DNA of 64,000 bases from Escherichia phage KKP 3954. This document shows, one piece after another, positions 6,283 to 50,072 of this stretch (within the stretch, counting starts at the first letter, position 1; every line of letters begins with the position of its first letter). The notes beneath the pieces are model-generated. The model was not told where the DNA came from. It saw nothing but the letters and a program-made list of their open reading frames with translations, and did not search any database. The translations under genes and the position numbers were made by a program. Where the stretch lies: the sequence record OR067838.1. One strand, given 5' to 3'.

Positions 6283-7079
6283 ATGTCCGAGAAAATCAGC
6301 CTGAAAAAACGTCAAGAAAACCTTGCTTTCTCTCTGAAAAAGAATAAGAACCTGAACGAAGGTAAGATTGTTCTTCGTGTAGCATGTGCTCTAGATATTT
6401 CTGGTAGTATGCATGGTCTATATACTCGTGGGGTAGTGAGTGATTTTGTAGGTAAACTGCTTCCTTTTGGTATGCTGTTCGACGATAATGAACAAATTGA
6501 CATGTGGGCCTTCAATACGAGTTCTCAAGAGCTTACTCCAGCAACAGCAGACGTTTACGATGACTACGTTGGTAAATGTATGCGTAATGTTCGTATCGGA
6601 GGTGGAACAAATTACGCCCCTGTAATGGCAGATATCTACGATGAGTATTTTGGCACTGTTACCAAATATGTTACCACTAAACAAGTGGTATACAAGAGGA
6701 GGCTCCAAAGAAAGGCTTCTTTAATCGTCTGCTTGGTAAAACTGAAACAGTATCGGTAGAGCGTGAAAAAGTTGTAGCTGTATCTGAACCAGGTGCTGAT
6801 GTTACTCCTGGCGTTGTATTCTTCCAGACAGACGGTGAGAATGGTGATCCTAGTGCTGTTCGTCGTCTTATTGAAGAGAATAAGAATAAGCCTATCTATT
6901 GGTTCATGGTTGGCGTTGGTAATGAGAAGTTCAGCTTCCTGAAAGAACTGGCAAATGCTTATGACAATGTTGGTTTTATTGGCATTAAAGATTTAGACTT
7001 GACAGATTCAGAGCTTTATGACAAACTCTTATCTGAAGAGTTCGGAGAGTGGGTTGTTAAAGTAGGTGCTAAAAAATGA
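6283..7079 (+). CDS. vWA domain protein with TerD-like N-terminal motif; reading frame broken near 6690-6710 (track ORF 6283..6759 continues in another frame to 7079)
   Basis: MIDAS motif DISGSM and GGGTNYAP in first frame; the vWA TDG segment (VVFFQTDGENGD) lies in the downstream frame, which has no start codon of its own until about 6907. Confidence 0.55.
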
Positions 7080-7589: not shown

Positions 7590-8192
7590 ATGACTGATAA
7601 AATTTCCCTGAAAAAAGGCTCTAGCGAAAAAATTTCCCTGAAGAAAGTTGCTCCGGCTCTGAAAGAACTGCGCCTGGAATTCTCTTGGAAATCTGATTCT
7701 AAACTGGATCTGGATGTAAGTGCACTGGTTTGTCGTCATAATGCCGCTGGCAATCCTGAAATGCTGTCTGCACGTCATCTGGTTTGCTATGCTAACAAGT
7801 TTGATCCTGAACGTTCTACCTTCGCTGGTGACGATGTTCGTGATGGAACTGGCAGCATGGAGCAGATTGATATTACTCTGGCTAAAATCTCTCCTGATGC
7901 ACAAGAGATTGCCTTTGTTCTGACCATTGATGATGATACAGGTCTGAAACGTTTTGGTCATGCTTCTGAAGGTATGCTTAAAATCTTCGACTCCGAGCGC
8001 AATGTGGAAATTCTGGATTTTGACTTCCTGGCTCCTGAAGTAGCTGGCAACACAATCTGCCACGTGGCTTCCTTGGTTCGTGAAGATGGGGAATGGAAAC
8101 TGAAAGCATATGGTGTAGGTAAAGCTGGTCTGGATATTTGCGATGTGGTGATGGCCTTCGGTGGTAAAAAAGAATGGTATGAATGTCCATAA
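7590..8192 (+). CDS. terD: TerD family protein
   Basis: Aligns by eye along its length to E. coli TerD: duplicated ISLKK N-terminus, GDDVRDGTGSMEQIDITL matching the GDNRTGEGDGDDE calcium-binding region, GEWKLKAYGVGKAGL near C-terminus. Confidence 0.85.
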   Translation: MTDKISLKKGSSEKISLKKVAPALKELRLEFSWKSDSKLDLDVSALVCRHNAAGNPEMLSARHLVCYANKFDPERSTFAGDDVRDGTGSMEQIDITLAKISPDAQEIAFVLTIDDDTGLKRFGHASEGMLKIFDSERNVEILDFDFLAPEVAGNTICHVASLVREDGEWKLKAYGVGKAGLDICDVVMAFGGKKEWYECP

Positions 8193-8815: not shown

Positions 8816-9099
8816 TGCAAGAAGATAATACTGTTGTTGTAGCAAGTTACCTGGTTGTCGGTCTTACCGAAGAGGACGTATACTACACCCGTAAGCATTT
8901 GGAAGCATACGCTACTTTGTTTATGGAAGATGAAAAGGATGTAGATAAATACAGTATTGATATGATCAACGACAGTATTTATCCTTGTATGGTTCTTAAA
9001 GTAGATGCTGTGTTGTGGGAGCGTTTTGCAAGGACTCATGATGCTGTAGAATGCTCCGCAGTAATGTCTCAAAACAACATTTTAGGGGAGATTCACTGA
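8816..9099 (+). CDS. hypothetical protein (start at ATG 8816 rather than track start 8752)
   Basis: AAGGGGAG RBS before ATG 8816. Confidence 0.45.
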
Positions 9100-9329
9100 T
9101 GGGAGAAGTCATTGAAGTCAATTTTCGCACTAAACAAAAAGTGCAAAAATATGTCGTTATTAAAAACATTTGCGTTGTCTGCTTCAATACTGTAATATAC
9201 GATTCACGACGCGGAGAAAACGAAAATGAACCTTACATTGAAATTTCTAAGAACAAAGGTCAATGTATTTGTAAGAACTGTGCAGTAGCTATTAAGGAGG
9301 TTGTAAATGAAAACGCTTGGGACCAATGA
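9099..9329 (+). CDS. small zinc-ribbon protein (CxxC...CxxC)
   Basis: ATG 9099 overlaps previous stop; two CxxC pairs. Confidence 0.45.
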   Translation: MGEVIEVNFRTKQKVQKYVVIKNICVVCFNTVIYDSRRGENENEPYIEISKNKGQCICKNCAVAIKEVVNENAWDQ

Positions 9330-9498
9330 AACTGGCGAGATCTCTCTTCAAGAAGTGACAAACGACAAACTGATTAAACTACGGGATGTAGCTCGTGACC
9401 ATCTCCAAGAATCTTTTAAAGAATATATGGAAGCACGAGATCGTGTCATCCAAATCCAACAAGAAATGATTAAACGTGGGATTGTAGCTGACAGTTAA
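9307..9498 (+). CDS. small hypothetical protein
   Basis: ORF track; AAGGAGG RBS. Confidence 0.45.
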   Translation: MKTLGTNETGEISLQEVTNDKLIKLRDVARDHLQESFKEYMEARDRVIQIQQEMIKRGIVADS

Positions 9499-9514
9499 TA
9501 TAACGGAGGGGAGA

Positions 9515-10078
9515 ATGATTTATTATATTACTCCCTATCTGACAGGAAATATCGGCAAGGCTATCAATGAAGCTATTGCCGTTCTTCCAGATGATAGTTG
9601 GGTGTGTTTAAGAGATACCGATACGATGTTCCTCCTACCTGATCAACCATCTATGCTTGAAGAGCTTGTTATGTCAAACCCGCCTTTTGATGTAATAGGT
9701 GCAACTTGTAACAGGTTAGGTAGTGGTTATCAGCTTTTCTCTAACCAAATTAACGATGATCCAGATATTCTAAACCATATAGAATATGCTAAGATTGCAA
9801 GAGAATATCATAAAGTGAGTGTTGAAGAAGTTCCTTTTGGAACACCTCTGGCAGGTTTCTTTTTGCTTTTTAGAAAATCATTGTGGAATGAAATTCCTTT
9901 CGAAGAAAAATCTATCCAATTTGACTTAATTTTCTCTCGCACTTTACATGAAAAAGGAAAGAGGTTAGGATTGATGCGGGGAATGTATCTGTTTCACATT
10001 TACAGATTAGGTCAAACAAATCCTCAACGGTCTATACATCATTTATTACACTGTCACGATCACAGTAAAACTATTTAG
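9515..10078 (+). CDS. hypothetical protein, possible GT-A-like glycosyltransferase (DTD motif)
   Basis: ORF track; GGAGGGGAG RBS; weak motif similarity only. Confidence 0.35.
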   Translation: MIYYITPYLTGNIGKAINEAIAVLPDDSWVCLRDTDTMFLLPDQPSMLEELVMSNPPFDVIGATCNRLGSGYQLFSNQINDDPDILNHIEYAKIAREYHKVSVEEVPFGTPLAGFFLLFRKSLWNEIPFEEKSIQFDLIFSRTLHEKGKRLGLMRGMYLFHIYRLGQTNPQRSIHHLLHCHDHSKTI

Positions 10079-10086
10079 GAGAGAAA

Positions 10087-10770
10087 ATGGAAAATATTAA
10101 AATCGGAGTGGGTGTTATCACTGTAGGTGTCCGTCCACTTAAAGACTACCTTGTAACAGATCCACATGCAGATTTTCGAGTATTCAACGATCCAGATCGT
10201 AAAGGTGTAGCTTACGCCAGGAATGAACTTATGCACCAGTTTTATGAAGAAGGTTATGATTATTGGTTTATTTTTGACGACGATTGCTACCCAATCATGG
10301 AGGGATGGGAAACATATTTTGTAGATCAAGCTGTCTCTGGAGGATGGGATTTCTTTGGTATGCCGGAGTATTTCAAAGATAAAGTTGTTGGGAGTAAAGG
10401 AGAAGTTATTCTCTGGGAACTTGCAATGTGTCAATTTGCAATGTATTCTCGTGCCGTTGTTGAGAAGATGGGTTATTTCCGCCCTTACACTCACGGCTAT
10501 GGTTTTGAAGATGCTGAATGGGTACACCGTTTGAAAGCTGCTGGTTTGAATCAGGGTATTCAGGCAATACCTTGTCCACTTCGTATCATGGCTTATATCC
10601 ACCCAGACGATGTTTTTGGAAACAATCCTATGCCTTTTGCTAATCTGACAAAAGAAGAGAAAGAAGCTGCTATTGGCATTAACTGGGAAGAATATAAAGC
10701 GTCTTTAGAAGATATTAAAAATGGGAAAATCCGAATTTCTTATGAGGAGGCACTGGCACATGTCAAATAA
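10087..10770 (+). CDS. glycosyltransferase family 2-like protein
   Basis: GT-A features: N-terminal GVGVITVG, AYARNEL, FIFDDDC acidic motif. Confidence 0.55.
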   Translation: MENIKIGVGVITVGVRPLKDYLVTDPHADFRVFNDPDRKGVAYARNELMHQFYEEGYDYWFIFDDDCYPIMEGWETYFVDQAVSGGWDFFGMPEYFKDKVVGSKGEVILWELAMCQFAMYSRAVVEKMGYFRPYTHGYGFEDAEWVHRLKAAGLNQGIQAIPCPLRIMAYIHPDDVFGNNPMPFANLTKEEKEAAIGINWEEYKASLEDIKNGKIRISYEEALAHVK

Positions 10771-11707
10771 AAAATGGACTAAACTGAAAATTGATGCAAA
10801 ACCTCACAGTGGTTGTGATTATCATCGTATTGTTATACCATTTAACAACAATAATTTTCAGCCTAAGAAAGATGTTGTCGTGTTTAACCGTATTCATTCT
10901 AAAGGGGCAGAATATGTTCTGTCCCTGAAACGTCAAGGTGTTAAGATTATTGTAGATTTAGATGATTTCTACCAACTTAATCCAGAACATTATTTAGCAA
11001 GTTTATATGAGTCAAACACTCATGCTATTGTAGCTATGGTTAAGCTTGCCGATGTGGTCATTGTGACTACGGAATATTTGGCATATAAGATCCGTCACTT
11101 AAATAGGAATGTTGTTGTGATCCGAAATGCACTTCCTTTTGATAGCGGACAATTCACTTTGTCAAATGATCGTTCATCCGGTACCCCTGTTGTATGGGCT
11201 GGCGGTGCTAGTCACGAACCCGATTTACGACTAGTCTCTAATACTTTCGATGATGAACTTCTTACTATTGCAGGATATGAAGCATCGCAGAGTATCACGG
11301 GGCAAGAGTGGATTAAGATCCGTAGAAATTTACCAAACGCCAAATATAAAGCTGCTGTAAAAGATTTAGATAATTACATGAGTGTTTACGAAAGTCATGC
11401 TATTGCTATAGCTCCTTTGGTAGACAATGATTTTAATAATTGTAAAAGTAATCTCAAAATCCTTGAAGCTGGGGCAAAAGGTATTCCGATTGTTTGTTCT
11501 AAGGTATTACCTTATTTTAACCCTGTGGATGCTCGCGCTGTTGCTTACGCAGAGAATAAAGCAGAATGGCATTACGAAATTGTTAAACTTCTTCGCAATC
11601 CGAACTATCGGGAAGATCGCGGCTTGTTCTTAGCGGAACATGTTCGAACACATTATAATCTGGCAGATGCAAACGAATTGCGACGCCAGGTTATTGAAAG
11701 CTTGTAG
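10760..11707 (+). CDS. putative glycosyltransferase (GT-B-like), paralog of 11715..12659
   Basis: ATG 10760 after GAGGAGG; shares CDYHRIVIPF, DLDD, WAGG, KSNLKILEAGAKGIP and VRTHY blocks with next gene. Confidence 0.5.
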   Translation: MSNKKWTKLKIDAKPHSGCDYHRIVIPFNNNNFQPKKDVVVFNRIHSKGAEYVLSLKRQGVKIIVDLDDFYQLNPEHYLASLYESNTHAIVAMVKLADVVIVTTEYLAYKIRHLNRNVVVIRNALPFDSGQFTLSNDRSSGTPVVWAGGASHEPDLRLVSNTFDDELLTIAGYEASQSITGQEWIKIRRNLPNAKYKAAVKDLDNYMSVYESHAIAIAPLVDNDFNNCKSNLKILEAGAKGIPIVCSKVLPYFNPVDARAVAYAENKAEWHYEIVKLLRNPNYREDRGLFLAEHVRTHYNLADANELRRQVIESL

Positions 11708-11714
11708 GTGAAGT

Positions 11715-12659
11715 ATGGGACAAATAATTCTTGACAATCGTAACGGAATCAATTATAGTGTCTGCGATTTCCATAGGGTAGTGCTGCCTTACTCAAGGCA
11801 GTTCTCTTCACAACCTAAACACAACGTTTTCGTTTTTAACGGAGTGCCAACAAAAGGTAAAGAGGGCTTTTTAGCCCTTAAAAACCTAGGCTTTAAAATG
11901 GTTATGGATTTGGATGACTCTTTAGTTATTCCAAAAGGACACATGTTAGAAGGTATTTTTGAATCCGGTATTCGTGAACATTTAAAATGGTTTTTAGAGC
12001 ACAGTGATCTTGTTACAACTACGACACCTGCCTTGCAAGTTGAACTTTCACAATACAATGATAATGTGCACATAATCCCTAATGGACTTCCTTATGATGA
12101 AGGTCAATTTGTGTTGACCCGTGATCGCTACTCCAAAACTCCATTAGTCTGGGCTGGAAGTGAAACACATAAACAAGATTTGGCTATCTTACCCGATTTT
12201 GGTAAAGATCTTACAATATGTGGTTTTCGTAGGGATTCTGAAGTTTTAAGTAGTCGTGAATGGTCTTTAATCAGAGAAAATGTAGCACCAACTTGTGTTT
12301 ATGAAGGTGTAAGACCATATGCCAACTACATGGAATCTTACGATGGTCATCAAATCAGTCTTGCACCATTGATCGATAACGTGTTTAATAATGCAAAAAG
12401 CAATCTTAAAATTCTTGAGGCAGGTGCTAAGGGTTTACCTTTAATCTGCTCTCCTCGTGAGAATTATCATACACAAGAGTTTAAAGATTTGTTATTCTTT
12501 GCTGAAACACCTTCCGAGTGGAAAGATATTACGGAATACTTATTAAGTGCTCCCGATGTTTGCATGGAGAAAGGATTAGCATTAGCTAAGTATGTCAGGA
12601 CTCATTATCACATTGATGTGTTGAATGAGCGTCGTAGACTTTTATTTGAGGAGCTATAA
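11715..12659 (+). CDS. putative glycosyltransferase (GT-B-like), paralog of 10760..11707
   Basis: Tandem paralog; KSNLKILEAGAKGLPLICS motif. Confidence 0.5.
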   Translation: MGQIILDNRNGINYSVCDFHRVVLPYSRQFSSQPKHNVFVFNGVPTKGKEGFLALKNLGFKMVMDLDDSLVIPKGHMLEGIFESGIREHLKWFLEHSDLVTTTTPALQVELSQYNDNVHIIPNGLPYDEGQFVLTRDRYSKTPLVWAGSETHKQDLAILPDFGKDLTICGFRRDSEVLSSREWSLIRENVAPTCVYEGVRPYANYMESYDGHQISLAPLIDNVFNNAKSNLKILEAGAKGLPLICSPRENYHTQEFKDLLFFAETPSEWKDITEYLLSAPDVCMEKGLALAKYVRTHYHIDVLNERRRLLFEEL

Positions 12660-12937
12660 TGATTAACACTTTTGATTTTGAATACACCACTCGTAACGGG
12701 AAAGCCTTGGTCGTGGAGGTGGATTACTATTATGAAGAACCTAATCCACTTTCTCGTGAAAGTGATTGGGATTACCACGGAGGGCTTTTAATTGACGGTA
12801 TTCGTTTTTATGAAGGATCTACAGAAGTTTTTGAAAAAGATTTAAATGTAACTGTAGCAGAAATTGCTTTCCAATTTAGAAAGCACATGGAAGAACTAGA
12901 AGCAGAATATATGATGGAGACTAACGAACCATTTTAA
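12659..12937 (+). CDS. hypothetical protein
   Basis: ORF track; coupled start. Confidence 0.45.
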   Translation: MINTFDFEYTTRNGKALVVEVDYYYEEPNPLSRESDWDYHGGLLIDGIRFYEGSTEVFEKDLNVTVAEIAFQFRKHMEELEAEYMMETNEPF

Positions 12938-12949
12938 CAGGAGAACAAA

Positions 12950-14728
12950 GTGTCGCACATTATAACTAAATATGGATTTGATGTTGATCTTAGCAAGGAA
13001 GGACATACAGGTTGTCCGCGCTGCATGAAAAATGGCAAGGATCGCTCTCGTAATAACCTGATGGTTTACGGATTAGATTCTAATGGAGAGCATAAAGGTG
13101 CTAAGTGCTTTGCGTGTGAATACACTATTCCTAGCGTAGAATGGTTACGAGAAAATGGTGAAGTTTTAGAAGAAGAGGAGGAGATTGTGGGTTCGGAATT
13201 TAATAAACAGATTCATCGTAAAATTGTTCAAGAAACATCAACCAACCCACGTGGTTATCGAGGCATTAAAGAAAAAGTTTCATCTTTCTATGGTGTTCGT
13301 TATGAATACCGTCAGGAAGGGGATCAGATGGTAGTAGAAAGTTGTTTATATCCGACTACCATCGGTAAAGAATTGGTTGGTTTTAAGCGTCGTATTCATC
13401 CTAAAGATTTCAGTAAACCTATTGGTCAAGTAGGTAAAGATGTAGATCTTTTTGGACAAATTCGTTTTGCAGACCGTTCTCATACTGTTGTAATTACAGG
13501 TGGTGAACACGATGCTCTGGCAGCTTATCAAATGCTATCTGAAAACTTGGACAGTAAATATGAGCTTCCAGCCGTAGTAAGTGGCACAACTGGTGAAACC
13601 AGTATGTATAAACAAGTTCAGGCACAATATCCTTTCTTTGAAAAATTTAAGAAGATTATTGTTTGCATGGATAACGACAAAGCAGGTAATGAGGCATTTG
13701 AAAATATTGTTAAGGTGCTGCCTCGTAACAAAGTCTACCGTATGCAGATGGATCTTAAGGATGCCAATCAGTATCTGGAAGAAGGCCGTGCAAAAGATTT
13801 CGTAAAAGCTTTTTGGAGTGCTCGTCTATACACCCCAGCAGGTGTTTATGCTTCTAATGTCTTGTATGAAGCTGCATTGGAATGCTTGGAATCCAAGATG
13901 ATTACCTTGCCTCCTTTTATGCGTGTTGCTGCAAACATGTTGGGTGGTGGTTTAGTAGAAGAAGAGATTACAGTCATCCTGGCAAAGACCAGTATCGGTA
14001 AAACTTTGATGGTGAACGAGATCACCAAACATATTATTGTTGCACACCCAGAACATACCCTAGGTATTCTGTCCTTGGAAGCGACTTATAAAAAGTATTC
14101 TCGTAACCTGTTATCCTCTTTCCTACACATTCCTCTACACAGGAAAACACCGGAAGAGAAATTTCAAATCTTGGAAGAGAATAAAGAAAAAATCCTAGAT
14201 TTTTACGAAAGAGAAGATGGATCACCACGTTTTTACGTGTGTGATGATCGTGGAGCAGATGTGGAGTCTATCAAAGAAAAAGTTTTGGAGATGATCATCT
14301 ATTTTGGAGTAACAATTCTTGTTATCGACCCTTATTCTGATTTGCTTTCTGGTATGGATGTTCAAGCCCAGGAAGAGTTAGCAACATGGTTGAAGCGAAT
14401 CATGAAAGAGTATGCTATAACTATTATCGTCATCTCACACGTTAAGAAGTCAGCTAATGGTGGCAATGAGCACTTAACAGAGGACGATGCAATGGGTAGT
14501 AGTTTCTTGGCTAAAGGTGCTGGTATTACCTTGGCTTTGGAACGAGATAAGGCTGCTGAAGATCCTGTAGAACGTAATACAACTCATTGCTTTATCCTAA
14601 AAAACCGTGAGTTCTCGGAGACTGGTCCAGCAGGGCAGTTTTACTATGACATTAGAACTGCAACTCTTCACGACAAAGAGCAGTATTTTAACAACCCTGC
14701 TAACTTACCTACGGATAGCAACTACTAA
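12950..14728 (+). CDS. DNA primase/helicase (T7 gp4-like: Zn-ribbon, TOPRIM-type primase, DnaB-like helicase)
   Basis: CPRC...CFAC zinc ribbon at N-terminus; P-loop ILAKTSIGKT in C-terminal half; GTG start after CAGGAG. Confidence 0.8.
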   Translation: MSHIITKYGFDVDLSKEGHTGCPRCMKNGKDRSRNNLMVYGLDSNGEHKGAKCFACEYTIPSVEWLRENGEVLEEEEEIVGSEFNKQIHRKIVQETSTNPRGYRGIKEKVSSFYGVRYEYRQEGDQMVVESCLYPTTIGKELVGFKRRIHPKDFSKPIGQVGKDVDLFGQIRFADRSHTVVITGGEHDALAAYQMLSENLDSKYELPAVVSGTTGETSMYKQVQAQYPFFEKFKKIIVCMDNDKAGNEAFENIVKVLPRNKVYRMQMDLKDANQYLEEGRAKDFVKAFWSARLYTPAGVYASNVLYEAALECLESKMITLPPFMRVAANMLGGGLVEEEITVILAKTSIGKTLMVNEITKHIIVAHPEHTLGILSLEATYKKYSRNLLSSFLHIPLHRKTPEEKFQILEENKEKILDFYEREDGSPRFYVCDDRGADVESIKEKVLEMIIYFGVTILVIDPYSDLLSGMDVQAQEELATWLKRIMKEYAITIIVISHVKKSANGGNEHLTEDDAMGSSFLAKGAGITLALERDKAAEDPVERNTTHCFILKNREFSETGPAGQFYYDIRTATLHDKEQYFNNPANLPTDSNY

Positions 14729-14747
14729 GGGCTTCGGCCCTTTTATT
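14727..14747 (+). terminator. rho-independent terminator (GGGC-TTCG-GCCC then TTTT)
   Basis: Read directly after primase-helicase stop. Confidence 0.55.
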
Positions 14748-14758
14748 AAAAATACCTG

Positions 14759-14787
14759 TTGACAACTTTGCGGAAGGGACTTATACT
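14759..14787 (+). promoter_or_regulatory. sigma70-like promoter (TTGACA, 17-nt spacer, TATACT)
   Basis: Hexamers read directly, intergenic. Confidence 0.55.
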
Positions 14788-14820
14788 TGTCTCATCAACC
14801 AAACAAGAGGAGAAGTAAAA

Positions 14821-15252
14821 ATGCGTATGACAATCGATCTGAATGCAAAAGTTAAAGCTGCTGGTGCTCTGGGTGCTGGTGTTATTAAACACAAACAAGC
14901 GTTGGCATTTGCCATCCCACACATGATTGTTGAGGATCATCCTGAAGAGTTTGCTGTAAAAGTTGTTGAGAACAATGTCTCTGTTATTGAACATCTTCCA
15001 ACTGGACGTTCTTACCGTGTTGTTTCTTCTAAAGGTTTTCGTTTCGATGTAAGCCCTTCTTTCACAAAAGGTGCTGGTCGTAGTAAAGTGGGTATTCTTT
15101 CTTACAAATATTATATCGATAAAGTTGCAGATGGTGTTGCATTCTGTCGTGTAAGTGAAGGTAAAGTAGATATCATCTTTAAAAATACCAAAAACATGGT
15201 TATTTCTGATGATGGTAAAGTGGACCTCACTATTGAGTTCGCTAACAACTAA
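14821..15252 (+). CDS. hypothetical protein
   Basis: ORF track; GAGGAGAAG RBS. Confidence 0.5.
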   Translation: MRMTIDLNAKVKAAGALGAGVIKHKQALAFAIPHMIVEDHPEEFAVKVVENNVSVIEHLPTGRSYRVVSSKGFRFDVSPSFTKGAGRSKVGILSYKYYIDKVADGVAFCRVSEGKVDIIFKNTKNMVISDDGKVDLTIEFANN

Positions 15253-15261
15253 GGAGGACTA

Positions 15262-16056
15262 TTGAGCAAGTTGAACACACTTGATCAATATTACACTAAC
15301 CCCGCTTATGCGGGGTTCTTATGTGATAAGATCAAAGAAATTTTTGGAGAGGAAGCTAACTACGTAGAACCATCTGCGGGAGAAGGAGCTTTCTCTTCTT
15401 GTTTTAAAAACATAACTTCTTTTGATATTGACCCTAAGTTTGAAGATTGTATTGAGGCAGATTTTTTAGCTCAATCTGTTGAGTCTGTTGGTAGTGTAAC
15501 TGCTTTTGTCGGTAATCCTCCATTTGGAAAAAATGCTAGTCTTGCCATTAAATTCTTTAACCATTGTGCTGAAATGCTGGATAACGAAGGTGGTATTTGT
15601 TTTATCTTGCCTCGCACATTTCAAAAAATCTTTTTTGCACACAAACTAAATCCCCATATGCATCTTCTTTACGAAGAAGAATGTCCAAAAGGATCTTTTA
15701 TTCTTCATGGAGAACCTTGGGATGTTCCTTGTGTATTCCAGATATGGATTAAACGCAACGAGAAGCGTTCTCCCGTTGTTTTAGGAGAGAATCGACTATT
15801 CGTATTAGGTAACAGTAAAGACTACGATATAGCCGTTAGGAGAGCGGGAGCAAGTGCAGGTAAAGTGTTATCAGAAGAAGATTCTTTATCTGAAGCATCT
15901 ACCTATTTTTTAAAAGCCTTGACTTCTGATCTTAAAACGCGTATCATTGAGGCTTACCCGTTACTTAAAGCTGAAGCTAGTAAAACTGCGGGAGTAAGAA
16001 GTTTAAGTTTAAAAGAACTTCAGTGGGTTCTGGAGAACATTAGAAAGGAGGAATAG
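15262..16056 (+). CDS. DNA N6-adenine methyltransferase
   Basis: AdoMet motif EPSAGEGAF and catalytic NPPF motif; TTG start after AAGGAGG. Confidence 0.65.
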   Translation: MSKLNTLDQYYTNPAYAGFLCDKIKEIFGEEANYVEPSAGEGAFSSCFKNITSFDIDPKFEDCIEADFLAQSVESVGSVTAFVGNPPFGKNASLAIKFFNHCAEMLDNEGGICFILPRTFQKIFFAHKLNPHMHLLYEEECPKGSFILHGEPWDVPCVFQIWIKRNEKRSPVVLGENRLFVLGNSKDYDIAVRRAGASAGKVLSEEDSLSEASTYFLKALTSDLKTRIIEAYPLLKAEASKTAGVRSLSLKELQWVLENIRKEE

Positions 16057-18653
16057 TGAGTAAGTTTACATGGGATATTGAAGCAAACGGATTGTTGAAT
16101 AATGACACTATTGATTATTTAGCTAGTCCTTATCGTCTCAAAGACACATTTCAAATGCACTGTATTGTCTTAGAGAACCATGAAACAGGAGAAATAGTAG
16201 CTTTCCACGATGGCCCTAAATACATCTTTGATGGGCGTCCTTATGAAGAGTCAGATGGTAAATACACATATGTTCTTAAAGAGTATGTGGCGCAAGATTA
16301 CACACATTTTCAACTAAAAGATTTCCCAGACTTTATTAATCATGAAGGTTATTTTAAAGATAAGCCTGAATATCTGGTTGAAATGGCTGTGGCTCACAAC
16401 GGTATCAACTATGACTGGTTGGCTACAAAACTGTTTTATGGTTTAGATTACAGTGTTAAATATAATACGTGGGGCAAAAATAAGGTAAAACTTATTGACT
16501 CCTTGATTTTGAGTAAAGTGTTAAACCCAGATCGAAAGATTGAGGGCAAATCAGGACATAGTTTGGCAGCACTTTCTCGAAAGGCAGGGGGTGATGTAAA
16601 AATAGATTTCCGTAAAGAGATTCCAGAAGAAGATCGATTTAAGACTTTTGCTGCTGATATGCTTTATTACTGTATCTATGACAACAAAGCCAATACGAGC
16701 GTATATAATTACCTTATGGAAGAATGGGGTGATTATGATAAATGGGAAGGTCCATTTGAACTTGAACAACGTGTAGCAGACATTATTACACGCCAGGAAC
16801 ACCGTGGGTTTGCTTTTAACATGAAGCAAGCAGAAGAGAACCTTGCTTTTTTGGATGCAGAAATGGAGCGTCTTCGTTTACTCGTTGAGCCTATTTTGCC
16901 ACCTAAACCAGCAACAAAAGGTTATCTTAAGGCTTTTATTCCACCTAAGTTGCAAATTAAAAAGAACTTAGAGCCAACTAACCATATGATCAATTTTGCT
17001 AAGAAACATGATGGTCATTTGGAAGAGAGGGATGGAGATTGGTGGTTAGTGATGTTGGGGAAAGAATGGAAACTGCCAGTTGCAGCAGATGAGCCTTTGT
17101 GTGATCCTAATATCCCTGCAACATTGAACGATACTACCCATATTAAAAACTGGCTTGTAGGATTAGGTTGGGTACCGTCTGAATATAAAGATAAAGACTT
17201 GACTCTTAAATCTGGCACCAAGATTAAAAAGAGCGAGGAAGAACTTCAGAAAGGTATTCGAGCTTACGTTGAGCAAACTCTATCTTCTAATTTTTGTCAG
17301 GATCGTTGTGATCATCTGGAGTGCACACCGGAAACCTTGGAGAGGAAGATTCAAGAGCGTATAGCAAAAGGTAAAGGTCGCGGTCTTAAAGTATTGACTA
17401 ACCCATGTTTTACCAAAGGTCAGGAAAAAGAAATTTGTCCTAACCTGCAAGCTTTGGGTGAGAAATTTCCTTATGCTACACAGATTGTAGAATACTTAAC
17501 GTATAAACACCGTAGGAACTCTATTTTAGGTGGTGGTGCCGATTGGGAAGAAGACGAAGAAGATCAAGAATACGATAAAGGTTTCTTAGCCGCAGTAAGG
17601 GCGGATGGTCGTATTCCTACCCCAGCCGCTACATGTGATGCTGCAACCTCTCGTATGAAGCATAGATCTGTAGCTAATATTCCTCGTGTCACATCTTTGT
17701 TTGGATGGGAGATGCGTAACTTGTTTGGTGTAGAGGTTCCTAAATACTTCCAGATTGGCTACGACTTCGACTCTTTGGAAGCAAAAATTGAATCACACTA
17801 CTGTTGGCGGTACGAGCCGGAGCCACACGAATATTGTAACGCTCTGTTGTTAGAGAAACCTAACGATGTTCACACAATGATGGCAAAACGTATCACTGAA
17901 ACTATTGGACGTAAATTTGAACGTAGTCCTGCTAAATCTGTTAAGTATGGTATTACCTATGGTGCACAAGCCGACAAGGTTGCTAAAACAATTGGTAGCG
18001 ATAAGTTTACAGGTCAGTTGGTGTTCGATGCTTTCTGGGAAGCTGCCTTCCCACTGGCACGTCTTAAAGAACGTTTAAACGATTTCTGGGTTAAAACTGG
18101 TAAACAATATGTTTTGGGTATTGACGGTCGTAAGGTTCCTACTCGTTCTGCTCACGCGATTCTTAACTCTTTGTTCCAAAGCGGTGGGGTTATCTGTGCT
18201 AAACGTGCAATGGTTATTTATGACGACATGATCGAAGAAGAAGGGCTAAGTGTTGACTTCTTTAAAGATGACTGGAAGAATAAAGACTTCGTGCAACAAA
18301 TGATTGCATACCACGATGAAGCCCAGCTTGAAGTTTCTCGTAACCTTGTAGAATTCAAATGGTTTTCACCTGAATCATTAGGTTGGAAGAAAGTAGACGA
18401 TCCTGAAGAACAAAAGAAAATTGATAAAGAATGCCTTGCTAAAGTCGAAGAATGGAAGCATAATAAGGAAAAAGAGACAGGGCAAATTTGGGCTAACATT
18501 CATGAATCTCCCAAAGGTGGATGGTTTACAGCCTATAGTCGGGCAGGTGAACTTGCTGCTTTAGCTGTTACTAAGGCTGGAGAATTTTACAATCTTAACG
18601 TTCAGCTTACTGCCGGATATGATGTGGGTAATTCTTGGGCGTCCTGTCACTAG
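16056..18653 (+). CDS. DNA polymerase, family A, with 3'-5' exonuclease domain
   Basis: 865 aa; N-terminal exo motif WDIEANGL; size and context typical of phage PolA; GTG start after AAAGGAGG. Confidence 0.85.
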   Translation: MSKFTWDIEANGLLNNDTIDYLASPYRLKDTFQMHCIVLENHETGEIVAFHDGPKYIFDGRPYEESDGKYTYVLKEYVAQDYTHFQLKDFPDFINHEGYFKDKPEYLVEMAVAHNGINYDWLATKLFYGLDYSVKYNTWGKNKVKLIDSLILSKVLNPDRKIEGKSGHSLAALSRKAGGDVKIDFRKEIPEEDRFKTFAADMLYYCIYDNKANTSVYNYLMEEWGDYDKWEGPFELEQRVADIITRQEHRGFAFNMKQAEENLAFLDAEMERLRLLVEPILPPKPATKGYLKAFIPPKLQIKKNLEPTNHMINFAKKHDGHLEERDGDWWLVMLGKEWKLPVAADEPLCDPNIPATLNDTTHIKNWLVGLGWVPSEYKDKDLTLKSGTKIKKSEEELQKGIRAYVEQTLSSNFCQDRCDHLECTPETLERKIQERIAKGKGRGLKVLTNPCFTKGQEKEICPNLQALGEKFPYATQIVEYLTYKHRRNSILGGGADWEEDEEDQEYDKGFLAAVRADGRIPTPAATCDAATSRMKHRSVANIPRVTSLFGWEMRNLFGVEVPKYFQIGYDFDSLEAKIESHYCWRYEPEPHEYCNALLLEKPNDVHTMMAKRITETIGRKFERSPAKSVKYGITYGAQADKVAKTIGSDKFTGQLVFDAFWEAAFPLARLKERLNDFWVKTGKQYVLGIDGRKVPTRSAHAILNSLFQSGGVICAKRAMVIYDDMIEEEGLSVDFFKDDWKNKDFVQQMIAYHDEAQLEVSRNLVEFKWFSPESLGWKKVDDPEEQKKIDKECLAKVEEWKHNKEKETGQIWANIHESPKGGWFTAYSRAGELAALAVTKAGEFYNLNVQLTAGYDVGNSWASCH

Positions 18654-20329: not shown

Positions 20330-21217
20330 ATGTCCGTAATTAATACTGAAACTGATCGTAAAGGCAAAACCGTAACTTATGCAACTGGTATCGTAGACTA
20401 CGTTAAACTGGATAAATTCGCCGAACCTAAAACTTTTCATTGGGAAGGAAAAACGATTGTTTCAACTCACCGAGCTTCTCTTGTTCTGAAAGAGAAAGGT
20501 GCTAAACCAGATGAGAAAGGTGTTTGGATTTCTCTTGGTGACATTGAACTGAAAGAAGGTTATGAAAACCTGCAAGTCAAAGAAGGTGATAACTGGATCA
20601 CTATTGAAAAAGGTGTAGAAGTAAGTATTGATATTGATCGCGTTGATAATAAAGGCGGTAAAACTTACTACAATACTAAAAAATCTCGTATTACAGTATT
20701 GTCTACCGATGGTGTTCAGAAGTCTAACAAATCTTCTGGCAATAAGGGTTCCAACGATGCTGCTCCTAAGCAGTCCTATAAAAAACGTGATACTGTAGGT
20801 CTGGAAACTGGTCACGCAGTAAATGGTGCACTGGAACTGATTCGTAATGGTGTTAAAGGCGATGCTTTCGATATCGCTGGGGTTGTTCAATCTGCAACTG
20901 TCACACTGAAATCGGAAATTGCTGAATCTCGTGGCGTTGATATTAATGATTATGATCTTGGGGCATCTGTTGGTCACGCTATCCTCAATGCTTGTAAAGA
21001 CCATACCGTTAAGACTGTATCTGTAGAAGATCTGATTGATTCTGCTCGTAAAGTTCTGGCTCTGTCTGATAAAGTTGCTGCTGCCATTCGTGGTTCCGCA
21101 GAACAGCCTAAGAAAGAAGAGAAGAAAGAAGTTAAGAAACCTGAACCACAACCAGAACCAACTCCAAGTAATCAAGAAGAACCTCCAATGGACTTCGACG
21201 ATGATATTCCATTCTGA
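20330..21217 (+). CDS. ssb: single-stranded DNA-binding protein with E. coli SSB-like acidic C-terminal tail
   Basis: C-terminus EPPMDFDDDIPF is the same as the E. coli SSB tail; strong RBS GAGGAG. Confidence 0.7.
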   Translation: MSVINTETDRKGKTVTYATGIVDYVKLDKFAEPKTFHWEGKTIVSTHRASLVLKEKGAKPDEKGVWISLGDIELKEGYENLQVKEGDNWITIEKGVEVSIDIDRVDNKGGKTYYNTKKSRITVLSTDGVQKSNKSSGNKGSNDAAPKQSYKKRDTVGLETGHAVNGALELIRNGVKGDAFDIAGVVQSATVTLKSEIAESRGVDINDYDLGASVGHAILNACKDHTVKTVSVEDLIDSARKVLALSDKVAAAIRGSAEQPKKEEKKEVKKPEPQPEPTPSNQEEPPMDFDDDIPF

Positions 21218-48661: not shown

Positions 48662-50072
48662 TTATTTTGATAACGGGGGGCTTAACCCCCGCCGTATTAG
48701 TTTGCAAGTACGGTTAGTCAGGACGTTGACCTGAACTTTAACGTAATGGAAGAAGCCAGCGTAAACATATTCAATCTTCATCCCATCAACCAGACGAGCA
48801 TTGATTTGCGCATCGGTCATATCGGCACGAGAAGGAATATAAACAATAGGTTTCAGATCGACACGCAAACCAGTCTCTTCAGAAGTAACAACTTCATTAG
48901 CGATGGAACCGTTGAGGATACCTACTTGGATCGGGTTAGCCAGAACAGCTTGTCGAATCAAAGCCAGACCGTTTGAAGTAGCACGAACACCACCACCCAG
49001 CATAGACTGTTGTTTAAACAGTGTAAACAGTGATTCTTCTGTGCGAGCTTTAAACCACAAAGCATGAACAACATAGTCAACAAAGAAACCGCTAACCATC
49101 AATCCATCACGATAGAACAGAGTTCCATGCTCTTTACGATAGATGTTACCGTTCTGTTGAACAATATTGTTTTCCGAAGTCTGATCCAGTTTCTCGATCT
49201 CTACTCCTACCAGTGTTTTACCGTGAAGGGTAGTTAAACCAGGTTGACGAGAACAGATTGCACCAACAACTGCTGCTTCTGGGAATACAGAATCTGCATC
49301 AGTCATCCACAAAGCAAAGCAAGTGTTATTATAACCGAGGTCATTCAGTCGTTCCAGAACGTTATCTTCTGCTTTCGTTTTAATTCCAGGTTCAGAGCTA
49401 GAGAAGAAGTAAACTTTATCATTCTCTTCTACCCATGCAGCCAAAGCTAGAACATCTTCTGTTTCATGGGAATCTGAAAGGGTCCAGAACCAGCTACTAT
49501 CAATATCATGCAGAGCAGCGATATCTTCCGTAATAGCATTAGCATAGACAGTTTCTTGAGTGAAACCTGTGCTGTCAATAGAACCAAACTTACCTTCTAC
49601 TGGAGTGAAAGTCATTGCAGCGCCGTTGTTAGCTACTGTAAACAGTGGGCCATAAACAAGATCTGCATTGATCATTTCAGTCAGACCAACTACAATCTCT
49701 TGTGCAGTTGCAGTGTCATCAGCAATGAATTTAAATTCTTTTTTCTTGGGTACCATTTTTGATGGTAATTGTGTAAGTTGCACTATCTTCTACGATTGGA
49801 GTTAGAGTAAAGTTTGTAACTTCACGCTTACCAACCATGACTTGATCTGGTGGGAACAAACCGTTAAACAGTTTGACTGCCATAATATACGCTGGATCAT
49901 TTAATCCATAACCTGCTTCCAAAAGTGCATCGGAAGAAGAGTAATATTGAATCGCTTCGCCAGTTACGTTCTGACCTGTAAGGATCAGAGGAATATCGAA
50001 CTGGGTTTCACGAATTGATGTAGCACCATACAGTAAAGTTACGGTTGCTACCTTTTCACGAAAAGTTGCCAT
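48662..50072 (-). CDS. tail sheath protein; two ORFs (49731..50072 and 48662..49783) joined by a +1 frame break at a 6-nt homopolymer
   Basis: AGGAG RBS before ATG 50072; break at plus T6 49739-49744; combined about 470 aa upstream of tube gene. Confidence 0.55.

What the first reader, a model, noticed from the sequence alone, without database searches (positions are those of the whole stretch)
9515..12659. Block of four putative glycosyltransferases, including a tandem paralog pair, next to the replication module
One GT-A-like protein (10087..10770, with AYARNEL and FIFDDDC motifs), one weaker GT-like ORF (9515..10078) and two tandem GT-B-like paralogs (10760..11707, 11715..12659, sharing the KSNLKILEAGAKG motif) are co-transcribed just upstream of primase-helicase, methyltransferase and polymerase. 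In phages such clusters either glycosylate hypermodified DNA bases (anti-restriction) or modify host surface glycans (superinfection exclusion); the replication-module context and adjacent DNA methyltransferase favour a DNA-modification role, but the substrate is unknown.
Basis: partly seen in the sequence, partly recalled or inferred. Interest (0 to 1): 0.55.

Follow-up and report, generated by a model that had tools for sequence, protein, structure and literature searches.

The report
Phage four-glycosyltransferase cassette, acceptor unknown
Four real sugar-transferring enzymes sit side by side in this E. coli phage; they probably use phage-made rhamnose to decorate something other than DNA, most plausibly the virus particle's own proteins, but this is untested.

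The parts
9515..10078 (+). GT1: 187-aa soluble GT-A-fold glycosyltransferase (accessory member of the cassette), with RBS GGAGGGGAG at 9505-9513
10087..10770 (+). GT2: 227-aa soluble GT-A-fold glycosyltransferase (core member; R45...DDD64-66...ED141-142)
10760..11707 (+). GT3: 315-aa GT-B-like glycosyltransferase, the ancestral-type copy (core member); overlaps the GT2 stop by 11 nt, with RBS GAGGAGG at 10744-10750
   Evidence: phrog_7162 E 6.8e-149. Pfam Glyco_trans_1_4 and 1_2 hits just below cutoff. All single-copy homologs in other phages score higher to GT3 than to GT4.
11715..12659 (+). GT4: 314-aa GT-B-like glycosyltransferase, a derived tandem paralog of GT3 (41% identity)
   Evidence: phrog_7162 E 2.9e-145. 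Pfam Glyco_trans_1_2 at 25.2 bits against a cutoff of 25. GT4-type copies occur only in tandem pairs in large myovirus contigs. Family profile matches the GT4-family C-terminal domain in PDB.
12659..12937 (+). 92-aa ORF between the cassette and primase-helicase (phrog_4240, function unknown); start overlaps the GT4 stop. Membership in the module is doubtful.
   Evidence: Conserved after the GT-B gene only in large-myovirus relatives (L012, L013, PaulScherrer bas60_0047). Absent from the cassette in prophages and small phages.

Best explanation
The block is a phage-specific glycan-assembly cassette. Its conserved core is a GT-A enzyme (GT2) followed directly by a GT-B enzyme (GT3). In this lineage the core is extended by a second GT-A (GT1) and by a tandem duplicate of the GT-B (GT4). 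All four are soluble cytoplasmic enzymes. Inferred mechanism: they act in sequence, each adding one sugar from a nucleotide-sugar donor, and at least one step uses dTDP-L-rhamnose made by the phage's own RmlABCD (encoded elsewhere in the genome, outside this window). This builds a short oligosaccharide on a non-DNA acceptor. The most likely acceptor is one or more phage virion or morphogenesis proteins, giving a glycan coat as in mycobacteriophage Che8. Shown here: the enzyme folds and motifs, cassette mobility, phage specificity, co-distribution with Rml, and absence of known DNA-hydroxylation enzymes. Inferred: sequential action, rhamnose as donor, and a protein acceptor.
For: GT folds and catalytic motifs. 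No TM segments. Cassette mobility: GT1h-GT2h-GT3h occur in the same order in a Serratia prophage between the lysis genes and HNH/TerS/TerL/capsid. GT3h and GT2h lie between TerL and portal/cement/MCP in L006. GT2h-GT3h lie between Q/HicAB and lysis/terminase in a lambdoid phage, and before PhageMetallopep/DUF2280/TerL/portal in Pseudomonas prophages. The order Hexapep acetyltransferase, GT2h, GT3h, HNH, ParB, TerL holds in about 45 Chitinophagaceae-phage loci. A late-operon position fits an acceptor that is made late. A GT1-like domain sits inside the head module of Cellulophaga phi12:1, next to a Methyltransf_24 protein, which parallels Che8 gp108 (GT-A fused to a TylF-like methyltransferase). 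GT2's nearest outside PHROG is the mycobacteriophage GT family found at the Che8 gp108-110 locus in Ramsey. Che8-type phages glycosylate capsid and tail-tube subunits with phage GTs (Freeman et al. 2023, as cited in PMC11256854). The family is overwhelmingly viral: at least 572 viral contigs against 23 loci in 185,579 bacterial species genomes, and most of those are prophages. RmlC's distribution among cultured phages matches the cassette's (Escherichia 105 vs 105, plus KP13-26), while GT-less Vequintavirus relatives lack both. Evidence against DNA as acceptor.
Against: There is no direct evidence of glycosylated virions in this phage group. The major capsid protein has no lineage-specific or Ser/Thr-rich C-terminal tail; it aligns to residue 331 of 333 with GT-less relatives. 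So the Che8 acceptor pattern is not reproduced. GT1-4 are not detectably homologous to Che8 gp108-110 themselves. In this phage the block lies with early/middle replication genes, not structural genes. The region next to the terminase in small phages is also a common site for DNA-modification genes and morons, so position alone is weak evidence. GT2-family members show a recurrent weak similarity to TET-associated DNA glycosyltransferases (9 of 14, best E 3.4e-4). The Rml genes were seen in close relatives, not in this window.
Confidence: 0.4

Rival explanations
1. Host envelope glycan remodelling. The soluble GTs act at the inner face of the membrane on undecaprenyl-linked ECA or O-antigen intermediates, or on the LPS core, adding rhamnose-containing side groups. 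This would change the glycans these phages use as receptors (ECA and the first outer-core glucose), giving superinfection exclusion or preventing progeny from sticking to debris.
Against: The family is nearly absent from bacterial glycan loci (23 loci in 185,579 genomes, most in prophages). There is no flippase, polymerase or Gtr-type membrane partner, and no TM segments. In small phages the cassette lies inside the late operon, just before or after the lysis and packaging genes. That is too late for new glycan to reach the surface and is not expressed in lysogens unless it has its own promoter. The cassette is present in strictly virulent large myoviruses.
Confidence: 0.22
2. DNA hypermodification. 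The GTs rhamnosylate or otherwise glycosylate a modified base in phage DNA, either at sparse specific sites or through an unknown base-hydroxylating enzyme, as an anti-defence measure.
For: In this phage the block lies next to primase-helicase, a methyltransferase and the polymerase. The Rml genes lie among nucleotide-metabolism genes. GT2-family members weakly resemble TAGT (9 of 14, best E 3.4e-4) and phrog_842, the beta-glucosyl-HMC alpha-glucosyltransferase family (E 5e-6). The idea was proposed in PMC7552041 and repeated in PMC10844046. The genome carries several DNA methyltransferases.
Against: There is no ThyA-superfamily gene (tblastn best E 0.43), no TET/JBP domain near the Dcm-like gene, and ThyX is an ordinary Thy1-family protein. 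Every known DNA glycosylation starts from 5hmC, 5hmU or 5hoC. The TAGT hits are below the gathering score and cover only about 36 residues of the sugar-nucleotide motif. PaulScherrer, with the identical block, belongs to a group that is exceptionally RM-sensitive, and Stephanstirmvirinae are targeted by Druantia III and ARMADA II, which the authors think recognise unmodified DNA. The same cassette occurs in lambdoid and HK97-like prophages with no base-modification genes nearby. Cultured-phage hits of the DNA GT-A profile were exclusively ThyS-associated.
Confidence: 0.08
3. Another acceptor. The GTs might glycosylate a host protein as a takeover step, a small molecule or signalling nucleotide, or RNA, or they might make a free oligosaccharide or glycolipid.
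Against: Three or four consecutive GTs, plus sugar-tailoring enzymes in related cassettes (acetyltransferase, aminotransferase, methyltransferase), point to building a multi-sugar glycan rather than a single regulatory sugar. No precedent is known to me for phage GT cassettes with such targets.
Confidence: 0.25

Closest known systems
Mycobacteriophage Che8-type virion glycosylation (Freeman et al. 2023; Che8 gp108-110)
   Same: Both are clusters of 3-4 soluble phage-encoded GTs, including small GT-A enzymes. In the small-phage versions of the cassette, the layout GTs, small ORF, HNH, terminase matches Che8. Related cassettes carry sugar-tailoring enzymes (TylF-like methyltransferase in Che8 gp108 and next to the GT1-like protein of Cellulophaga phi12:1). 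GT2 is distantly related (about 27% identity, phrog_1579 E 8e-13) to the GT at the same locus in Che8's relative Ramsey.
   Different: There is no detectable homology to Che8 gp108-110 themselves. The host is Gram-negative. The cassette includes GT-B enzymes. It comes with a phage-encoded dTDP-rhamnose pathway. In this phage it lies with replication genes. No C-terminal acceptor tail is visible on the capsid protein. Glycosylation of these virions has never been shown.
T-even and TET-associated DNA base glycosylation (T4 alpha/beta-GT; T2/T6 beta-glucosyl-HMC alpha-GT; TAGT/5mYOX systems; RB69/DLP3 arabinosyl-5hoC)
   Same: Both involve phage-encoded GT-A and GT-B enzymes, sometimes several in a row building di- or tri-saccharides, together with phage-encoded nucleotide-sugar synthesis. 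GT2 shows weak sequence similarity to TAGT and phrog_842.
   Different: The base-hydroxylating or hydroxymethylating enzyme is missing. Similarity is below family thresholds. Relatives with the same block are restriction-hypersensitive. The cassette also occurs in prophages that use host replication.
Temperate-phage serotype conversion (GtrABC, Oac, D3/epsilon15-type O-antigen modification)
   Same: Both are phage-encoded sugar transfer that could alter the very surface glycans used as phage receptors. Some cassette copies sit at moron sites of temperate phages.
   Different: Gtr systems are membrane proteins (flippase, bactoprenol GT, periplasmic GT). GT1-4 have no TM segments and no such partners. 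This phage is a large virulent-type myovirus.
Giant-virus and archaeal-virus capsid glycosylation (PBCV-1 A064R, Mimivirus R655/R699 and its rhamnose/viosamine pathway, STIV A197)

Membership tests
GT-A fold nucleotide-sugar glycosyltransferases (GT2-like) | Rossmann-like GT-A fold | tested here: met
GT-A fold nucleotide-sugar glycosyltransferases (GT2-like) | DxD metal/nucleotide-sugar binding motif conserved in the family | tested here: met
   GT1 D34 and D36 are invariant or nearly so in 25 sequences. GT2 D64-D65-D66, E141 and D142 are invariant in 14 sequences.
GT-A fold nucleotide-sugar glycosyltransferases (GT2-like) | Curated Pfam/NCBIfam family score reached | tested here: not met
   GT1 has no Pfam or NCBIfam hit. 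GT2's best hits are TAGT at 19.2 bits against a cutoff of 27.5 and Glycos_transf_2 at 13 against 23.3. These are divergent families recognised only by PHROGs and by structure.
GT-B fold, GT4-like / Glyco_trans_1_2 (PF13524) | Curated Pfam score for the C-terminal nucleotide-sugar domain | tested here: met
   GT4 scores 25.2 bits against a cutoff of 25. GT3 is just below (20.7-22.7). 20 of 27 family members hit PF13524, 17 hit PF13692 and 10 hit Glyco_transf_4. Profile hits to TreT, PglA and BshA C-terminal domains have E 4e-4 to 0.06.
GT-B fold, GT4-like / Glyco_trans_1_2 (PF13524) | Two-Rossmann-domain GT-B structure | not tested
Phage DNA base glycosylation systems (T-even, TAGT/5mYOX, 5hoC-arabinosyl) | Enzyme that creates a hydroxyl acceptor on a base (ThyA-superfamily hydroxymethylase or hydroxylase, or C5-MT plus TET/5mYOX) | tested here: not met
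   tblastn with an E. coli ThyA probe (sequence recalled from memory) against the window and the whole ukendt genome: best E 0.43. Pfam finds no TET/JBP around the Dcm-like gene, and ThyX is Thy1 family. Nothing relevant is annotated among the 280 features.
Phage DNA base glycosylation systems (T-even, TAGT/5mYOX, 5hoC-arabinosyl) | GT belongs to a DNA-GT family (TAGT PF20691, T4 alpha/beta-GT) | tested here: not met
   TAGT hits are below the gathering score in all 14 GT2-family members (9 weak hits, best E 3.4e-4, about 36 residues). A TAGT-annotated structure appears only at rank 35 in BFVD. No T4 GT appears among the hits.
Phage DNA base glycosylation systems (T-even, TAGT/5mYOX, 5hoC-arabinosyl) | Virion DNA resistant to restriction and containing glycosylated nucleosides | not testable with these tools
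   [quoted passage not shown] Bas60 PaulScherrer of that set has the identical block. No LC-MS data were found.
Che8-type virion glycosylation | Homology to the experimentally implicated GTs (Che8 gp108-110) | tested here: not met
   phmmer and profile searches of GT1-4 against Che8 gp107-111 gave no hit at E<=10. Only an indirect link exists, through Ramsey gp106 / phrog_1579.
Che8-type virion glycosylation | GT genes placed beside packaging or structural genes | tested here: inconclusive
   Not so in this window, where the block is next to primase-helicase. It is so for cassette homologs in a Serratia prophage, L006, lambdoid and Pseudomonas prophages, Chitinophagaceae phages and Cellulophaga phi12:1.
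Che8-type virion glycosylation | Glycans on the C-terminal residues of capsid and tail-tube subunits | tested here: inconclusive
   No Ser/Thr-rich tail was found, and the capsid protein has no lineage-specific C-terminal extension. Whether a glycan is present cannot be tested by sequence.
GtrABC-type serotype conversion | Membrane-embedded GtrA flippase, GtrB and a serotype-specific GT | tested here: not met
   The maximum 19-residue Kyte-Doolittle hydropathy is 1.65 or less for all four proteins, so there is no TM helix. No Gtr-like neighbours were found.
dTDP-L-rhamnose-dependent glycosylation | RmlA/B/C/D encoded by the same genome and co-distributed with the GTs | tested here: met
   ukendt gp164-167 are RmlD, RmlC, RmlA and RmlB. 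These lie outside this window and are inferred for this phage from 99% identity. RmlC and GT1 distributions match: Escherichia 105/105, Campylobacter-labelled 5/5, Phapecoctavirus 3/3, Justusliebigvirus 3/3; KP13-26 has both. Donor specificity of any individual GT was not tested.

The most novel reading that the evidence does not exclude
The GT2-GT3 pair, with GT1, GT4 and phage RmlABCD in this lineage, could be a widespread virion-glycosylation system of phages infecting Gram-negative bacteria. It would coat capsid, tail or fibre proteins with a rhamnose-containing glycan. That would extend the Che8 'glycan shield' beyond actinobacteriophages to therapeutic coliphages and to hundreds of uncultured phage lineages.
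Probability: 0.35. Interest if true: 0.7.

Novelty: new variant of a known kind. Interest (0 to 1): 0.45.

Why it matters
Phapecoctavirus and phi92-like phages are broad-host-range candidates for phage therapy and biocontrol. If their particles carry a phage-made glycan, this would affect antibody recognition, stability in the gut and pharmacokinetics, as was shown for Che8. It would also overturn the view that virion glycosylation is essentially confined to actinobacteriophages. If the cassette instead edits ECA or LPS, it would be a new kind of receptor masking by virulent phages. In either case it would explain why a lytic coliphage carries a full dTDP-rhamnose pathway, a puzzle noted since 2020. 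The published guess of 'rhamnosylated DNA' now looks unlikely. The core GT-A/GT-B pair is found in at least 572 viral contigs, so a functional assignment would annotate a large phage gene family.

Tried and rejected
- **PDB sequence searches.** Single-sequence phmmer against PDB for GT1, GT2 and GT4 gave nothing meaningful. The profile search with the GT2 alignment was also uninformative.
- **NCBIfam.** No family was found for any of the four proteins.
- **Homology between GT1 and GT2.** None was detected by BLASTP. They are independent GT-A lineages, not paralogs.
- **Direct homology to Che8 gp108-110.** None.
- **Ser/Thr-rich or lineage-specific C-terminal tails on structural proteins.** None was convincing, and the capsid protein is colinear with GT-less relatives.
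- **A shared accessory partner or acceptor gene across cassette contexts** (c1, c3, c5, c9, c13, c15, orf92). None is shared outside its own lineage.
- **Promoter and terminator scan.** Counts equal those in shuffled sequence, so it says nothing about transcription units.
- **Foldseek against viral structures.** Only generic GT-A neighbours were found, with no discrimination of the acceptor.
- **Papers not held in the library.** The Freeman 2023 and Schwarzer 2012 (phi92) papers could not be read. What I say about Che8 rests on citing papers and on my own recollection of the abstract.
- **TET route.** I considered it because of the weak TAGT hit and rejected it for lack of a TET/JBP domain.
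- **Unused resource.** I did not use the exhaustive representative-protein search, because it returns no names or context and would not bear on the acceptor question.
Full report
**Identity of the window.** A megablast of 9000-17000 finds 70 phage records covering most of the query at 95-99% identity. All are phAPEC8-like E. coli myoviruses of about 150 kb (genus Phapecoctavirus, subfamily Stephanstirmvirinae). The closest annotated record is phage ukendt NC_052661.1 at 99.2%. RefSeq already annotates the four genes as "glycosyltransferase (x4)". So the existence of the genes is not new. Their function is uncharacterised in the papers I could search.

**Checking the observation.** The proper start of the third gene is ATG 10760, with GAGGAGG 9 nt upstream, as in RefSeq. 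All four hit PHROG families annotated as glycosyltransferase with E-values from 1e-79 to 1e-149. Pfam and NCBIfam are nearly blind to them.

I built alignments from database homologs and predicted structures for the two least certain proteins.
- **GT3 and GT4** are 41% identical over their full length. GT4 just reaches the Pfam Glyco_trans_1_2 cutoff, and 20 of 27 family members hit it. The family profile weakly matches the C-terminal domain of GT4-family GT-B structures.

None of the four has a TM helix. The genes are separated by 12 nt or less, or overlap, and no + strand terminator lies inside the block. The promoter/terminator scan does not differ from shuffled sequence, so "co-transcribed" is plausible but not shown. 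Primase-helicase, a methyltransferase-like protein and the DNA polymerase follow.

Olsen et al. 2020 published the same idea after noticing a complete dTDP-rhamnose pathway in these phages (PMC7552041). I tested it in four ways.
- **No acceptor-making enzyme.** Every known phage DNA glycosylation adds sugar to a hydroxyl already on the base (5hmC, 5hmU or 5hoC). That hydroxyl is made by a ThyA-superfamily enzyme or by a C5-methyltransferase plus TET/5mYOX (PMC13326640 and the 2023 bioRxiv paper). The ukendt genome has neither. Nothing is annotated among its 280 features. A ThyA probe finds nothing (best E 0.43). The neighbours of the Dcm-like gene have no TET/JBP domain, and the thymidylate synthase is an ordinary ThyX.
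- **Restriction sensitivity of relatives.** BASEL phage Bas60 PaulScherrer carries the identical four-gene block in the same position. [quoted passage not shown] Later work finds Stephanstirmvirinae sensitive to Druantia III and ARMADA II, which the authors think recognise unmodified DNA.
- **The replication-module position is not conserved** (see the next section).
- **A counter-point.** Nine of 14 GT2-family members give weak Pfam hits to TET-associated glycosyltransferase. All are below threshold and cover only about 36 residues around the R...DDD sugar-nucleotide motif. GT2's match to a mycobacteriophage GT family is far stronger (phrog_1579 E 8e-13 over 128 residues, against phrog_842 E 5e-6 over 40 residues). 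The authors of the DNA-GT study note that their cultured-phage GT-A hits were exclusively ThyS-associated.

I put DNA modification at about 0.08.

**What the cassette looks like elsewhere.** Context look-ups of divergent homologs gave the most informative results.
- **Serratia prophage.** GT1, GT2 and GT3 homologs occur in the same order between the lysis genes and HNH/TerS/TerL/capsid.
- **A 45-kb phage contig (L006).** GT3 and GT2 homologs lie between the terminase and portal/cement/capsid genes.
- **A lambdoid phage and four Pseudomonas prophages.** A GT2-GT3 pair lies between Q/HicAB (or an Ig-like protein) and the lysis/PhageMetallopep/DUF2280/TerL/portal genes.
- **IMG/VR scan with the GT3/4 profile.** In the 80 loci fetched, a GT2-type GT-A lies immediately upstream of the GT-B in 43. 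In the largest lineage (phages and prophages of Chitinophagaceae) the order is hexapeptide acetyltransferase, GT-A, GT-B, 140-aa ORF, HNH, ParB, TerL.
- **Bacterial genomes.** Only 23 loci were found in 185,579 bacterial species genomes. Most are prophages. Five are giant multi-GT fusion proteins.
- **More distant large myoviruses (L012, L013).** These have GT1-GT2 and a single GT-B before primase-helicase. All single-copy GT-Bs resemble GT3 more than GT4. GT4 is therefore a lineage-specific tandem duplicate.
- **Hybrids.** Natural GT3/GT4 hybrids exist that are recombined exactly at the shared KSNLKILEAGAKG motif.
- **GT1-like domain in Cellulophaga phage phi12:1.** It is fused to a TOD1-type GT and sits next to a Methyltransf_24 protein, in the middle of the head module.

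The conserved unit is therefore a mobile, phage-specific GT-A/GT-B pair. It usually sits in the late region next to the packaging and head genes. Only the large myoviruses park it beside replication genes.

**Donor.** ukendt and phAPEC8 encode RmlB, RmlA, RmlC and RmlD (gp167-164) among nucleotide-metabolism genes, about 75 kb from the block and outside this window. The distribution of phage RmlC among 50,697 phage records mirrors that of the cassette. The counts match for Escherichia (105 vs 105), Campylobacter-labelled (5 vs 5), Phapecoctavirus (3 vs 3) and Justusliebigvirus (3 vs 3). The more distant Klebsiella phage KP13-26 has both. Vequintavirus relatives that share the capsid gene have neither. 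One natural isolate, ESCO37, lacks RmlA and RmlB, whose products the host can supply. I infer that at least one of the four GTs is a rhamnosyltransferase. This is inference, not a test.

**Acceptor.** Fold comparison cannot tell. The neighbours of GT1 and GT2 act on proteins, lipids, polysaccharides and small molecules. Three or four consecutive GTs, together with sugar-tailoring enzymes in related cassettes (acetyltransferase, DegT aminotransferase, TylF-like methyltransferase), indicate assembly of a multi-sugar glycan.

The late-operon position in four or five independent small-phage lineages argues for an acceptor that is made late and leaves with the particle. With DNA disfavoured, virion or morphogenesis proteins fit best. 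The layout GTs, small ORF, HNH, terminase is the same as in mycobacteriophage Che8. Che8 virions carry O-glycans installed by phage GTs (Freeman et al. 2023, cited; I could not read the paper itself). Che8's relative Ramsey carries, at that locus, a GT whose N-terminal domain is the closest outside relative of GT2.

Several points count against this reading.
- GT1-4 are not homologous to Che8 gp108-110.
- No Ser/Thr-rich or lineage-specific C-terminal tail exists on the capsid protein.
- No report of glycosylated virions in this group was found.
- The terminase-proximal region is also a favourite site for DNA-modification genes and morons.

The main rival is remodelling of ECA or LPS, which are the receptors of these phages. 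It suits the enzyme families and the rhamnose donor. It fits poorly with late-operon expression, with the near absence of the family from bacterial glycan loci, and with the lack of membrane partners.

**Verdict.** The DNA-modification interpretation is disfavoured. The finding is reframed as a lineage-expanded copy of a widespread phage GT-A/GT-B cassette, coupled to a phage rhamnose pathway, with an unknown non-DNA acceptor. Probabilities:
- virion protein glycosylation, about 0.4
- host envelope glycans, about 0.22
- another acceptor, about 0.25
- DNA, about 0.08

The genes are already annotated and the puzzle is already in the literature, so the finding itself is moderately interesting (0.45). 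If virion glycosylation were confirmed it would be a notable extension of a recently discovered phenomenon to coliphages used in therapy.

Noticed in passing
window 48697-50072 (- strand): The tail sheath gene carries a 2-nt indel relative to ukendt gp253 (99.4% nt identity, 2 gaps). This splits it into ORFs 48662-49783 and 49731-50072, and tblastn switches frame near residue 110. It is either a sequencing or assembly error or a pseudogene in an essential gene.
   Followed up: partly
window 16056-18653 (+): The DNA polymerase ORF is 865 aa. The ukendt ortholog is 1189 aa, and the PaulScherrer ortholog is annotated as 'intein-containing DNA polymerase precursor'. This phage appears to lack the roughly 972-bp intein, so the intein is polymorphic within the genus.
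   Followed up: partly
protein P0060 (54.8-kb Logan contig); also P0059 and P0066; compare window 10760-12659: Natural GT3/GT4 hybrid genes exist. The N-terminal part (about 230 aa) is GT3-type and the C-terminal part is GT4-type, with the switch exactly at the shared KSNLKILEAGAKG motif. This implies unequal recombination between the tandem paralogs that collapses the pair into one gene.
   Followed up: no
GenBank MG065650.1 and other MG0656xx records (hits H1, H55, H81, H144): Several unannotated records named 'Campylobacter phage' (host C. jejuni) are 99% identical to E. coli Phapecoctavirus or are Justusliebigvirus-like. The host label looks doubtful.
   Followed up: no
L095 (GTDB MAG 'Proteobacteria bacterium OH_PFB_59', contig JAEZZU010000159.1): This 18.6-kb MAG contig carries the complete GT1-GT4/orf92/primase-helicase arrangement at 99% identity. 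It is a Phapecoctavirus fragment binned into a bacterial MAG.
   Followed up: partly
window 11731-11759 and 14759-14787 (+): Two 11-of-12 matches to the sigma-70 consensus (TTGACA-17-TATAGT and TTGACA-17-TATACT). The first lies just inside the 5' end of GT4 and the second upstream of ORF 14821-15252. Overall promoter-like counts do not exceed shuffled sequence.
   Followed up: no
window 20330-21217 (+): This 295-aa protein ends in ...PPMDFDDDIPF, the acidic C-terminal tip typical of single-stranded DNA-binding proteins. RefSeq relatives annotate it as hypothetical.
   Followed up: no
window 6283-6759 and 7590-8192 (+); relative L013 1234-4030: Tellurite-resistance-like genes (TelA, vWA-TerF-like and TerD in the relative L013; TerC and 'tellurite resistance' in ukendt) lie upstream of the GT block. 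Such genes are unusual cargo for a lytic coliphage.
   Followed up: no
L097 8645-9271 (Pseudomonas sp. App30 prophage): A 208-aa protein with a Big_2 Ig-like domain sits immediately upstream of the GT2h-GT3h pair. Ig-like domains are typical of exposed virion decoration proteins, so it is a candidate acceptor worth testing.
   Followed up: no
L011 7227-10733 (Logan contig SRR16123996_42239): A distant GT3 relative heads a larger sugar cluster: a GT2-family GT, a GT_PLOD-type GT (the family that glycosylates collagen hydroxylysine) and a DegT/DnrJ/EryC1 aminotransferase. The cluster lies next to TerS in a phage contig.
   Followed up: no
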